From Escherichia coli (GTDB lineage: Bacteria; Pseudomonadota; Gammaproteobacteria; Enterobacterales; Enterobacteriaceae), in the NCBI RefSeq assembly GCF_045037415.1, contig NZ_CP173438.1: a stretch of DNA of 64,000 bases. One strand, written 5' to 3'. How positions within the stretch are numbered: the first letter of the stretch is position 1; the number at the start of each line of letters is the position of its first letter. Made by a program: the position numbers. Below, piece after piece: positions 1 to 3,000 of this stretch.

Positions 1-3000
1 TAAAAATTTTTCCCCGGATTTGCCGTTGTCGTAGCTGTCATGCAACACGCTCATGACGTCAGACACGGTGACGATAATCACGCTGCGCCCCTTCACCATC
101 AGCCGGTTGCCCATCGCCGCTGCAAGGTGATTTTTCCCGGTGCCGGTTTTACCGCTGAACACAAAATTCGTGCACCCGGTCATCAGTTCGTCAGCTATGG
201 ATTTGGCCTGGCTCAGCGCGTATTTTTGCCCGTCGTTCTGCACCTGATAATTTGCAAACGAGCATTTGCTGTGCAGAGGCTGGATGCCCGAACGATTCAG
301 GATTTTTTCCACCCGCAACTGGCGATTCTGGCGGTTAATCTCCTCGCTGCGTTTTCGTCCTTCAGCAAGTTGCCATTCCCGCCACTCCTCCACCGTCCGG
401 TACGGTGGAACCGACCCCTGTGGTGCAAGTCTGCGAATACGTTCAAGAACCCCAACTGCCGCAATGTTTTTCATGACACGTCACCCCCTGAATCCCGGCG
501 GTATTTCAGTGTCCGGTTCAGAAATGTGATTCACGCAACGCTGCGCAGGCGAACGCCCCAGGCGGATAACCAGTTCATCCCATTTTTCCCGGAGTTTTGC
601 CGGACTCATGATGTTTTTTACCCAGAACGAATCCCGCTGGAGACGCCCAAACATTTCACAAATTTGTCTGTGAGTTCTGCCATCCAGCATCCGCATTGTG
701 CGAACGTCATTGGCCCATGCTGTCCAGTTGGGTTCTTTCGGTCTAGTGATCTCGCCATCATAGCTGGCCGCCTGCTCGTAAAGACTCACGATTCGTCCCC
801 AGATCCACTGTGCGCACACCAAATCTTCCTGACTTCCCCACTGGCGTTTTTTCGCACTGAACACAACCGCGTCAGGGTGTCGGGTTAAAAAATCCTGTTC
901 AGCCGTCTGCGGGTCCGGTTGCGAAGCGTCCGGACAAGAAGATCTTTTATCTGACGGATCAGGTTTTAATACTGACGGATCGGGGTCAATCATCGGCCCC
1001 CTAATCGGCAGTTTTTTATCAACAGTTGATCCATCAAAATTTGACGGGTCAACCGTTGAGGGGTCAATATTTGACGGGTCAACTGTTAACGGGTCATTTT
1101 TTGCCGGGCTAATTTTTCTTTTCGGTTTATATGACTCACGCGCCGCCGCCGCAGCTGCTTCGAGTTTTTCCACATTAAGCCGATAGATATTGCTTACATT
1201 ACGCCCACCGACCTTACGCTCTTCCTTCGTCAGCCAGCCCTCTTTCGCCAGTTCTGCAATAGCCGATTTCACTGTGGATTCACTTCTTGCACCGATCTGA
1301 CGCCGGATAGTTTCAATGGCAGGCCATGACACGCCCTCGTCATTGCTGTAGTCTGCAAGACGGGCCATAACCGCCACCCTGGATAAGATCATGCCGGTGA
1401 AGGCGCACCCTTCCCAGACAAGACCATGAAGCTTGCTGCTCATAAAACCCCCGAACACCGTGCTTTTAGTGCATCACCACAGCATTCCCTGCCGGGCCGC
1501 CGCGATTCATCTGGTCATACAAAACAACCGCTGACGCAACAAAATCATCGACATCCTTCACCAGCCGATCCCGCCGTTCGACGATCTCACGGTAATATTC
1601 AGAACTGTGGCTGCGCATACGGGCCACCAGCAAAGGCGGCATCGCCTTTTCGATCGCCGGTAACAGAGCCTGCATTTTTTCAACAGCATCAGGGGTGTCT
1701 TTATCCAGCCAACGGAAAATTTTCTGGGTATTACGGGCCAGGGCTTCCGGATGGCTGTCGTCATACAGTTCCGGGAACGTCATTCCCAGCTCGAAATACG
1801 CTTTGGTAATTTTCGCAGCCGGCACTTTTTCGCCGTCCGGATGCGCCCAGGCATTCATCGCCATGCGGATGTGTTCATGCTTGATTTTCATGAATCATTC
1901 TTTCCTTCGTTCGAGGTGCTATCCTGCTTCTTGTAAAGTTCTGGGTTGTATTTCAATTCACCGTTAGTAATTTCATCCAGTTCCATTGCGCGAAGTTTGG
2001 GAATAACTGCTTTCCACCGCACAACAGCCACATGTGAAATTCCAAGAGCCTCAGCTACTAGTCGCTTTTTTTTGAAATAGCGCAGAACATCATCTTTGAA
2101 CATAAAACTCTCCTGTTATTTCGAGCAGAAGGGTAACAATAGTTACATAACAATGTCAACCATAGCAACATCACTTGGTAGTAACATTGGTTACATGAAA
2201 AACACTATCAGCGAACGTATTCGGAATCGTCGAAAAGACGTTGGATTAACCCAACAGCAGGTTGCGAAAGCAATCGGCATATCTCGTGTATCCGTAACAA
2301 AATGGGAAAATGGCTCTTCAAAACCTGACGGTGAGAATTTGTATCTACTGTCAAAATTGCTTTCCAAATCTCCTGAATGGATTCTTTATGGAAAGGACGG
2401 TCACGATAAAACCGATGATCTGCGTCTGAATCAGTACCCTTACATTAGTGACAACATCGCCCGGTTGCCCGTTTTAACGTGGGAACAGGCTGGTTATTGG
2501 GATATGAGTTGTCCAGTAACCAAGATTCCTGGTATTAAGAACTGGGTTGATGTCATGACAAAAACCGCTGAAAACTCTTTTTTATTGCATGTTGAGGGAG
2601 ATGCGATGACAAACTCTAACGGCCTCCCAACCATCCCCGACGGATCTACCGTGCTGATCACACCATGCTCAAGTAACATTAGAGAACTGGTGGGAAAAAT
2701 AATCTTAATCCAATTGGAAGGAACGCCAAACGTAACACTAAAAAAAGTTGCGATTGACGGACCAAACATCTATCTGTTGTCACTGAATCCGCTTTACAAA
2801 CCCATCGAACTGAATGGTGGTTACACCATTAAAGGTAAAGTTTCACAAATACATCAATACTTAGACTGAGTCAGAACCCGCATTCATTGCGGGTTTTTTA
2901 TGCCCTCAAATGTACCTTTTGCAACATTGTATTGACTCGAAAGGTAACTCTTGTTACCTTAACAACATACCAACCCACCCCGCCCCACAGAACGCCGGGC

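What the first reader, a model, noticed from the sequence alone, without database searches (positions are those of the whole stretch)
1466..2103. Cro/YdaS-like and YdaT-like gene pair with overlapping stop/start
A 71-aa HTH protein gene and a 141-aa YdaT-like gene overlap by ATGA and sit between the repressor and the replication genes, as in Rac. The Rac ydaS-ydaT pair has, as I recall, been discussed both as a toxin-antitoxin pair and as a Cro/CII-like regulatory pair, so its role here is open.
Basis: partly seen in the sequence, partly recalled or inferred. Interest (0 to 1): 0.3.

Follow-up and report, generated by a model that had tools for sequence, protein, structure and literature searches.

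The report
Prophage Cro and CII-like (YdaT) regulators
These two overlapping genes are the Cro-type and CII-type (YdaT) switch regulators of an ordinary lambda-like E. coli prophage, not a toxin-antitoxin pair, and published work on near-identical proteins already explains their role.

Summary
On the minus strand, a 71-aa ORF (2103..1888) and a 141-aa ORF (1891..1466) overlap by ATGA. They lie between a divergent CI-type repressor and an O-like replication gene.

The 141-aa protein is YdaT. It differs by one residue from the CP-933P YdaT crystal-structure protein (PDB 8bt1) and is 31% identical to Rac YdaT.

The 71-aa protein is a Cro, but of the P22-Cro/DicC family. It is below threshold for the YdaS family and has no BLAST match to Rac YdaS.

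The role is no longer open. Papers from 2021, 2023 and 2025 show that YdaS/YdaT are Cro/CII equivalents and that CP-933P YdaT is not toxic.

The ATGA overlap lies in the spacer of the 18-bp YdaT operator (ATGATTCATGAAAATCAA, 1881-1898), which is identical to the footprinted Rac 'YdaT-box'.

New here:
- A -10-like TAnnnT hexamer lies 20-21 nt leftward of the box in all 16 junctions examined (TATCCT, 1920-1925 in the window). This gives a lambda-P_RE-like layout.
- A ~30-bp island around the box is the mosaic joint where at least 8 different cro cassettes meet the same ydaT.

Verdict: already known, low interest.

The parts
1888..2103 (-). cro-type gene, 71 aa, P22_Cro/DicC family. An AGGAG Shine-Dalgarno sequence lies 8 nt upstream of the ATG.
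   Evidence: ORF. PF14549 59.4 bits (cutoff 30.2) and phrog_409. 47% identity to P22 Cro, PDB 1rzs. 39% identity to DicC. RefSeq annotates it as 'Cro/CI family transcriptional regulator'.
1466..1891 (-). ydaT, 141 aa. CII-equivalent transcription activator with an N-terminal POU-like HTH domain and a C-terminal tetramerisation helix.
   Evidence: PF06254 40.9 bits. phrog_163 'CII-like transcriptional activator', E=3e-48. 140 of 141 residues identical to PDB 8bt1, the only difference being A14 for V14. Structure and operator are described in PMC9986795.
1888..1891 (-). ATGA stop/start overlap of cro and ydaT. It lies in the 6-nt spacer of the YdaT-box.
   Evidence: Sequence; junction alignment.
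1881..1898 (.). YdaT-box operator. It reads ATGATTCATGAAAATCAA on the coding strand and TTGATTTTCATGAATCAT on the + strand.
   Evidence: It is the only site in the 64-kb window within 1 mismatch of TTGATTN6AATCAA (0.29 expected by chance). It is identical to the DNase-footprinted Rac YdaT-box and differs by 1 nt from CP-933P OM.
1920..1925 (+). Candidate -10 hexamer (TATCCT, preceded by TGc) of a leftward, YdaT-dependent P_RE-type promoter. The predicted start is near 1932. The transcript would be antisense to cro and sense to the repressor gene.
   Evidence: A TAnnnT hexamer lies 20-21 nt from the box in 16 of 16 junctions examined, against a 1.2% per-position background. The YdaT-dependent CP-933P P_RE reporter fragment covers only the box and about 90 bp leftward of it. 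This is inferred, not shown, for the window.
2130..2159 (-). Candidate P_R for cro-ydaT: -35 TTGACA (2159..2154), 18-nt spacer, -10 TACCCT (2135..2130).
   Evidence: Read directly from the sequence. The automatic consensus scan did not report it. Inferred.
2133..2194 (.). Putative operators for the repressor and Cro: GTAACaataGTTAC (2133-2146), a degenerate TCAACcataGCAAC (2157-2170) and GTAACattgGTTAC (2181-2194), at 24-bp spacing.
   Evidence: Direct-repeat family D1 with 48-bp spacing and the sequence. Inferred by analogy with lambda O_R and CP-933P (PMC8630535).
2153..2869 (+). CI-type repressor, 238 aa as annotated, or 224 aa from the ATG at 2195. It has a DicA/P22-C2-like HTH and an S24 peptidase-like domain with Ala at the catalytic Ser position.
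   Evidence: HTH_3 and Peptidase_S24 hits. 54% identity to the DicA N-terminus. Alignment to lambda CI, PDB 3bdn.
481..1443 (-). O-like replication initiator gene directly downstream of ydaT, with internal 15-bp iterons at 1019-1108.
   Evidence: phrog_391, E=4e-115. RefSeq CDS. Iterons.

Best explanation
The two genes are the rightward early regulators of the immunity region of a lambdoid E. coli prophage integrated next to ompW. P_R transcribes cro, ydaT and the O/P-like replication genes. The 71-aa P22-Cro/DicC-type protein acts as Cro. It would bind the GTAAC-N4-GTTAC operators between itself and the divergent repressor gene and turn down repressor synthesis. The 141-aa YdaT is the CII equivalent. 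It is a tetramer that binds the 18-bp inverted repeat straddling its own start codon and the cro stop codon (1881-1898). From that site, centred near -42.5, it activates a weak leftward promoter whose -10 (TATCCT, 1920-1925) lies in the 3' end of cro. The resulting transcript is antisense to cro and sense to the repressor gene, which favours establishment or maintenance of repression, as lambda CII does at P_RE. The ATGA overlap probably also couples ydaT translation to cro. Shown here: gene identities, operator identity and the conserved geometry. Shown by others on a protein differing by 1 residue or on the identical box: DNA binding, tetramer formation, activation and lack of toxicity. Inferred: the exact promoter, the Cro operators, and activity in this particular prophage.
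For: Identity of YdaT. 140 of 141 residues match 8bt1. Arg60, named the only fully conserved residue of the recognition helix, and the helix-bundle core residues are unchanged, because A14/V14 is the only difference. Identity of Cro. Operator: the window box ATGATTCATGAAAATCAA equals the footprinted Rac YdaT-box. CP-933P YdaT activates a reporter through that Rac box in vivo as well as Rac YdaT does (PMC11879457 Fig. 3C). CP-933P OM differs only at position 1. The box is the only near-match in the window. Promoter: TAnnnT lies 20-21 nt from the box in 16 of 16 junctions, including at least 9 unrelated cro 3' ends and homologues from Klebsiella and Stenotrophomonas phages, phages mEp237 and HK639, and Qin (background 1.2% per position). 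The CP-933P P_RE reporter fragment that responds to YdaT runs from ydaT +29 to -86, so it holds the box and TACAAT but little else. Lambda has the same logic: TTGCN6TTGC lies in cII codons 3-8 with the -10 just upstream of the cII ATG. Not a toxin: CP-933P YdaT showed no toxicity, and neither protein hits PADLOC. YdaT homologues are annotated as cII in isolated temperate phages.
Against: Nothing was measured for this prophage. The window box has A rather than T at the outermost position, but this is the Rac variant, which is bound and active. The consensus promoter scan found no sigma-70-like site in 1400-2950, so both P_R and the P_RE candidate are weak matches. That is expected for an activator-dependent promoter but is not proof. 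The published papers disagree on where the YdaT-dependent promoter lies. PMC9986795 places OM downstream of, or at the start site of, P_RE933P. PMC11879457 assigns activation in Rac to PracR4, about 190 bp from the box. No Shine-Dalgarno sequence is evident before either candidate repressor start codon. Rac YdaT overexpression is toxic, causing filamentation through rcsA, so a physiological cost of this YdaT is not excluded.
Confidence: 0.82

Rival explanations
1. The pair is a type II toxin-antitoxin module, with YdaT as the toxin and the small HTH protein as the antitoxin (or with both toxic), as the Pfam and PGAP names 'YdaT_toxin' and 'YdaS_toxin' and the 2017 Rac papers suggest.
For: It is a two-gene operon with an overlapping stop and start. 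RefSeq names the protein 'toxin YdaT family protein'. The 2017 mSphere papers reported toxicity of Rac YdaS and YdaT when RacR is depleted. Rac YdaT overexpression causes filamentation and death.
Against: The protein differing by 1 residue from this YdaT was not toxic and behaves as a transcription activator. Its structure is an HTH tetramer bound to a defined operator. Toxicity of Rac YdaT is explained by transcriptional misregulation of rcsA. The partner here is not even a YdaS-family protein. The same ydaT is paired with at least 8 different upstream HTH genes, which does not fit a co-evolving toxin-antitoxin interface. There are no PADLOC hits. The position between cI and O is that of cro and cII.
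Confidence: 0.03
2. YdaT acts here mainly as a repressor or autoregulator. By sitting on its own ribosome-binding site and start codon, it blocks rightward transcription or translation of ydaT and the replication genes, and does not activate a leftward promoter.
For: The box covers the ydaT start codon and the cro stop codon. PMC9986795 repeatedly calls YdaT a 'repressor'. The tetramer has two DNA-binding faces and could form a roadblock.
Against: In Rac, expression from P_ydaST changed little whether or not the box was intact, while leftward racR expression rose up to 29-fold. YdaT switched on the CP-933P P_RE reporter. The conserved TAnnnT at a fixed distance on the leftward strand is not expected for a pure roadblock.
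Confidence: 0.08
3. YdaT activates the repressor gene from a distance, through a promoter elsewhere in or beyond cro (as proposed for Rac PracR4, about 190 bp away), and the nearby TAnnnT hexamer is irrelevant.
For: PMC11879457 attributes activation to PracR4 (-35 TTGACG, -10 TACGCT) within ydaS, and knocking down its -35 raises P_ydaST output.
Against: The window's cro is only 216 bp and unrelated to ydaS, so no homologous PracR4 exists. 190 bp from the box would fall at the cro start and P_R. The Rac reporter construct also contains the proximal TATGAT 20 nt from the box. The CP-933P fragment that responds to YdaT is only about 115 bp. The 16 of 16 conservation of TAnnnT at 20-21 nt has a chance probability of about 1e-14 for 9 independent cassettes.
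Confidence: 0.07

Closest known systems
YdaT of cryptic prophage CP-933P / Sp12, E. coli O157:H7 (PDB 8bt1; PMC8630535, PMC9986795)
   Same: The protein is 140/141 identical. The gene sits between a cro-type gene and the same O-like gene, with an ATGA overlap and the operator on the stop/start junction.
   Different: The upstream partner and the repressor belong to a different cassette. The window has a P22_Cro-type Cro and an S24-domain repressor, where CP-933P has YdaS, PaaR2 and the paaA2-parE2 toxin-antitoxin genes. The outermost operator base is A in the window and T in CP-933P. The -10-like hexamer is TATCCT in the window and TACAAT in CP-933P.
Rac prophage ydaS-ydaT (E. coli K-12; PMC11879457)
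   Same: The gene order is the same, and the 18-bp YdaT-box ATGATTCATGAAAATCAA is identical, with the ydaT ATG in its spacer. Both are YdaT-family proteins.
   Different: The YdaT proteins are only 31% identical. The Cro-position proteins show no detectable pairwise similarity. In Rac, ydaS ends 22 nt before ydaT, so there is no overlap. The Rac repressor RacR is unrelated to the window's S24-type repressor.
Qin prophage dicA-dicC-ydfX (E. coli K-12)
   Same: DicC is in the same P22_Cro family (39% identity). DicA shares the repressor HTH (54% over 70 aa). The left arm is the same: ydfA, ydfB, ydfC, dicF, dicB, ydfD. ydfX is a YdaT homologue that overlaps the dicC stop codon.
   Different: In Qin the module is decayed. 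YdfX is truncated to 96 aa and lacks the tetramerisation helix, and its box has 3 half-site mismatches. DicA lacks the S24 domain.
Phage lambda Cro / CII / P_RE
   Same: The regulatory logic and layout are the same. The activator gene follows cro. The activator's binding site overlaps the 5' end of its own gene. The -10 lies just upstream, and the transcript is antisense to cro and sense to cI. Both proteins are tetramers.
   Different: Neither window protein hits a lambda Cro or CII Pfam family. YdaT recognises an inverted repeat with 222 symmetry, whereas CII recognises the direct repeat TTGCN6TTGC.
Phage P22 Cro (PDB 1rzs)
   Same: It is 47% identical over 59 aa and in the same Pfam family.
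   Different: The operator specificity is presumably different, and the window protein has a 12-aa C-terminal tail whose codons carry the P_RE -10 and half of the YdaT-box.

Membership tests
YdaT family (Pfam PF06254; CII-like activator, phrog_163) | Profile match above the curated threshold | tested here: met
   PF06254 scores 40.9 bits against a cutoff of 21. phrog_163 E=3.2e-48.
YdaT family (Pfam PF06254; CII-like activator, phrog_163) | POU-like HTH domain with the recognition-helix Arg (Arg60), and a C-terminal helix that forms the four-helix-bundle tetramer | tested here: met
   140 of 141 residues are identical to the crystallised protein 8bt1. The only change is A14/V14 in helix alpha1, so Arg60 and the core residues I103, L110, V111, V114, F117, V118 and A121 listed in PMC9986795 are present. 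Oligomerisation itself was not measured.
YdaT family (Pfam PF06254; CII-like activator, phrog_163) | Cognate inverted-repeat operator (T/A)TGATT-N6-AATCAA at the start of its own gene | tested here: met
   ATGATTCATGAAAATCAA at 1881-1898, with the ATG in the spacer. It is identical to the Rac YdaT-box.
YdaT family (Pfam PF06254; CII-like activator, phrog_163) | DNA binding and activation of a leftward promoter | not testable with these tools
   Shown for CP-933P YdaT and Rac YdaT in PMC8630535, PMC9986795 and PMC11879457. Only inferred for this copy.
YdaS family (Pfam PF15943 / COG4197) | Profile match above the curated threshold | tested here: not met
   18.5 bits against a cutoff of 30. Controls: Rac YdaS scores 107.7 bits and CP-933P YdaS 46.5 bits.
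YdaS family (Pfam PF15943 / COG4197) | Pairwise similarity to Rac or CP-933P YdaS | tested here: not met
   No BLASTP alignment to Rac YdaS at E<=100. Only a 21-residue match at E=0.048 to CP-933P YdaS.
P22 Cro family (Pfam PF14549) | Profile match above threshold and similarity to P22 Cro | tested here: met
   59.4 bits against 30.2, covering model positions 2-59 of 60. 47% identity, E=1e-18.
DicC subfamily (NCBIfam NF007282) | Subfamily score cutoff | tested here: not met
   56.1 bits against a cutoff of 130. 39% identity to K-12 DicC. It is a relative, not a DicC orthologue.
Type II toxin-antitoxin module | A protein toxin with its own toxic activity, neutralised by direct binding of the co-encoded antitoxin | not testable with these tools
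   Indirect evidence is against it. The near-identical YdaT is non-toxic, its structure is a DNA-binding tetramer, and the same ydaT is paired with at least 8 different upstream genes.
Type II toxin-antitoxin module | Match to known TA or defence protein models | tested here: not met
   No PADLOC hits for either protein. The only 'toxin' labels are the legacy Pfam names.
Lambda CII family (by sequence) | Sequence or profile similarity to lambda CII | tested here: not met
   No Phage_CII Pfam hit at E<=0.1. The relation is functional and positional only.

The most novel reading that the evidence does not exclude
The YdaT-box and a -10 hexamer at a fixed 20-21 nt distance may form a portable P_RE module written across the cro/ydaT junction. 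YdaT would then be a class-II-type activator acting at the adjacent promoter (box centre about -42.5) throughout the family, Rac included, rather than from about 190 bp away as published for Rac. The ~30-bp island (the 3' part of the box plus the first 8 ydaT codons, GATTCATGAAAATCAAGCATGArCACATC), with the variable box bases just upstream completing a TGA so that all three frames are stopped, would be the joint at which unrelated immunity (cI-cro) cassettes are exchanged. Each incoming cro gene would be forced to encode the -10 and half an operator in its last codons.
Probability: 0.55. Interest if true: 0.3.

Novelty: already known. Interest (0 to 1): 0.15.

Why it matters
The toxin-antitoxin versus Cro/CII debate has been settled for a protein one residue away from this one, and the locus is a common, annotated E. 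coli prophage module. There are two practical points. First, the database names 'toxin YdaT' and 'YdaS_toxin' are misleading and should not be used to call a TA system here. [quoted passage not shown] The fixed box-to-(-10) spacing seen across unrelated cassettes is a small, testable refinement of how YdaT-type CII analogues activate repressor synthesis, and it bears on a discrepancy between published models.

Tried and rejected
- A consensus sigma-70 promoter and terminator scan of 1400-2950 found no promoter-like site, so promoter assignments rest on manual reading and comparative spacing.
- I searched the whole window for further YdaT-boxes that might mark P_I- or P_aQ-like targets. There are none within 1 mismatch, and the 2-mismatch sites occur at chance frequency.
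- An inverted match between the box and the sequence at the second repressor ATG (I3) looks like a coincidence of two 'ATGAAAA' gene starts. I did not pursue it.
- Table S1 of PMC8630535, which should give the P_RE933P hexamers, is held without its contents. I reconstructed the reporter fragment from the primer sequences instead.
- Megablast against the phage collection found only partial matches of 83-88% identity. The exact module is known from prophages in chromosomes, not from an isolated phage in that collection.
- I rejected the TA reading and the 'YdaS family' label (see the membership tests).
- I did not run structure prediction or the large protein searches, because solved structures at 99% (YdaT) and 47% (Cro) identity already exist.
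Full report
**Observation.**
The window's minus strand carries a 71-aa ORF at 2103..1888 and a 141-aa ORF at 1891..1466. The + strand reads TCAT at 1888-1891. On the coding strand the cro stop TGA and the next gene's ATG therefore overlap as ATGA. A divergent gene at 2153 (or 2195)..2869 encodes an HTH_3 + Peptidase_S24 repressor. An O-like replication initiator gene (1443..481) follows directly. The 801 bp around the pair are 100% identical in many E. coli chromosomes, and 696 of 5426 complete genomes carry at least 80% of it. In strain 4/1-1 the module lies in a prophage integrated next to ompW. That prophage has a Qin-like left arm: ydfA, ydfB, ydfC, dicB, ydfD, exonuclease, xis and int. 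The only omission is the strand.

**What the two proteins are.**
- The 141-aa protein passes the Pfam YdaT threshold (40.9 bits against 21).
- It matches phrog_163, 'CII-like transcriptional activator', at E=3e-48.
- It is 31% identical to Rac YdaT.
- It is identical at 140 of 141 positions to the CP-933P YdaT crystallised as PDB 8bt1. The only difference is A14 for V14.
- The 71-aa protein passes the P22_Cro threshold (59.4 bits against 30.2).
- It is 47% identical to P22 Cro and 39% identical to Qin DicC.
- It fails the YdaS_toxin threshold (18.5 bits against 30).
- It gives no BLASTP alignment with Rac YdaS and no significant one with CP-933P YdaS.
- Rac YdaS itself also hits P22_Cro at 36.8 bits. 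The two families are therefore distant relatives, but this protein is a P22-Cro/DicC-type Cro, not a YdaS.

**What the literature already says.**
- Jurenas et al. 2021 (PMC8630535) showed that in CP-933P, PaaR2, YdaS and YdaT act as CI, Cro and CII analogues. YdaT was not toxic and switched on an otherwise silent leftward promoter, P_RE933P, at the ydaS/ydaT border. [quoted passage not shown]
- Prolic-Kalinsek et al. 2023 (PMC9986795) solved the structure. It has a POU-like HTH domain and a C-terminal helix that forms a tetramer. They footprinted the high-affinity operator TTGATT-N6-AATCAA at that border.
- Wons et al. 2025 (PMC11879457) footprinted the Rac 'YdaT-box' ATGATTCATGAAAATCAA, whose spacer contains the ydaT start codon. 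Mutating the box abolished a 29-fold activation of leftward racR expression. CP-933P YdaT activated through the Rac box as well as Rac YdaT did. They traced the toxicity of overexpressed Rac YdaT to activation of the host gene rcsA.

**The overlap is an operator.**
Aligning the junctions shows that the window reads aATGATTC|ATGAAAATCAAG. The 18 bp at 1881-1898 are exactly the Rac YdaT-box and differ from CP-933P OM only at the outermost base. It is the only site in the 64-kb window within one mismatch of the consensus (0.29 expected by chance). No further candidate YdaT targets appear.

**The ydaT gene is paired with many different cro genes.**
An exact-sequence look-up of CP-933P YdaT found it next to three different cro/repressor cassettes, one of them the window's. 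Among 80 viral-contig loci with 96-100% identical YdaT, I found at least 8 different upstream HTH genes:
- lengths of 71, 75, 80/84, 84/108, 86, 91, 93 and 100 aa;
- Pfam types P22_Cro, YdaS_toxin, HTH_3 and HTH_17.

All of them end either -DS* (4-nt ATGA overlap) or -IHENQA* (17-nt overlap). DNA identity between cassettes falls from about 100% to about 25% at 5-7 nt left of the ydaT ATG. In the other direction, phages Tritos and vB_EcoS-673R7 share one cro cassette but carry ydaT alleles that diverge from +24 onward. A ~30-bp island, GATTCATGAAAATCAAGCATGArCACATC, is therefore the mosaic joint. The box region supplies TGA in all three frames. This pattern does not fit a co-evolving toxin-antitoxin pair.

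**Promoter geometry (new here, inferred).**
Reading leftward from the box, every junction I examined has a TAnnnT hexamer 20 or 21 nt away.
- Twelve representatives covering at least 9 unrelated cro 3' ends show it. Examples are TATCCT in the window, TACAAT in CP-933P and TATGAT in Rac.
- So do a Stenotrophomonas phage, phages mEp237 and HK639 (where the homologue is annotated CII), and Qin.
- The background frequency of TAnnnT in the same sequences is 1.2% per position.

In the window the hexamer is at 1920-1925 on the + strand, preceded by TGc. This predicts a start near 1932 and puts the box centre near -42.5, a class-II activator position.

The YdaT-responsive CP-933P reporter fragment, reconstructed from its primers, runs only from ydaT +29 to -86. 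It therefore contains the box, TACAAT and little else.

Lambda uses the same layout. TTGCN6TTGC lies in cII codons 3-8, and the -10 lies just upstream of the cII ATG.

This differs from the Rac model, which assigns activation to PracR4 about 190 bp away. That reporter also contains the proximal hexamer, so the two readings can be separated by a point mutation.

**Mechanism proposed.**
1. P_R drives cro-ydaT-O. The candidate is TTGACA-18-TACCCT at 2159..2130, with AGGAG before the cro ATG.
2. Cro would bind the 14-bp palindromes GTAAC-N4-GTTAC at 2133-2146 and 2181-2194, and a degenerate middle copy at 2157-2170. These are spaced 24 bp apart.
3. YdaT, probably translationally coupled through the ATGA overlap, binds its box and fires the leftward promoter.
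4. The resulting RNA is antisense to most of cro and sense to the repressor gene.

Only the identities and the sequence geometry are shown here. Binding and activation are borrowed from the published homologues. The promoters are inferred, and the automatic scan did not call them.

**Comparison and verdict.**
The pair consists of a member of the YdaT family and a member of the P22_Cro family. It works like lambda Cro/CII without sequence relationship to them. Its nearest K-12 counterpart is Qin's dicC-ydfX, which is a decayed copy: YdfX is a 96-aa truncated YdaT homologue and its box has degraded. Neither protein hits a defence or TA model. The module is already known and annotated, so interest is low. 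The only parts with some novelty are the fixed-spacing promoter and the mosaic joint.

Noticed in passing
window 2153-2869 (+), motif at about residues 156-162 of the 238-aa protein: The S24 domain of the CI-type repressor reads VEGDAMT where lambda CI has VEGNSMT, so the catalytic Ser149 position is Ala. The Ala-Gly cleavage-site motif (EQAGYW) and the catalytic Lys position (TLKKV) are kept. All 27 fetched loci with this cassette have the Ala. The repressor may therefore be unable to self-cleave, and the prophage may not be directly SOS-inducible, or may use an antirepressor.
   Followed up: partly
window 2133-2197: There are two perfect 14-bp palindromes, GTAACaataGTTAC and GTAACattgGTTAC, and a degenerate middle copy, at exact 24-bp spacing. 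The second in-frame ATG of the repressor (2195) directly abuts the last palindrome, and neither candidate start has a Shine-Dalgarno sequence. This suggests a leaderless repressor mRNA, as for lambda cI and PaaR2. The RefSeq start (2153) would put two operators and the P_R -35 inside the coding sequence.
   Followed up: partly
L097 (E. coli K-12 Qin) 3850-4351, minus strand: Qin dicC-ydfX is a decayed homologue of this pair. YdfX (96 aa) is a truncated YdaT homologue (37% identity) lacking the tetramerisation helix. It overlaps dicC by the same 17 nt seen in other cassettes. Its box has degraded to TTGAACaatgaaAATCAC, but TACGAT still lies 20 nt away.
   Followed up: yes
loci L003-L096, junction at the ydaT start codon: At least 8 unrelated cro-type genes are joined to near-identical ydaT at a ~30-bp island. 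All of them terminate as -DS* or -IHENQA*. The box region offers TGA in all three frames.
   Followed up: yes
L091 (mEp237) and L092 (HK639), about +48 from the annotated cII start: In these phages the YdaT-homologous 'CII' is annotated with an N-terminal extension of about 30 aa. A box-like repeat plus TAnnnT at 20 nt lies inside that extension. Either P_RE is internal to cII there, or the annotated starts are too far upstream.
   Followed up: no
window 1019-1108: Five 15-bp-period iterons (TCAAnnnTTGACGGG-like) lie inside the O-like replication gene. They are presumably the prophage origin, as in lambda.
   Followed up: partly
window 4015-4066 (+): There is a full-length DicF sRNA match (76.7 bits against a gathering score of 48) upstream of dicB in the prophage left arm (dicB annotated).
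   Followed up: no
window 1-480: The window starts inside the DnaC/IstB-like ATP-binding replication gene. The prophage right arm is therefore outside the window, and only about 8.6 kb of prophage (up to int, next to ompW) is inside it. The rest of the window is E. coli chromosome.
   Followed up: partly
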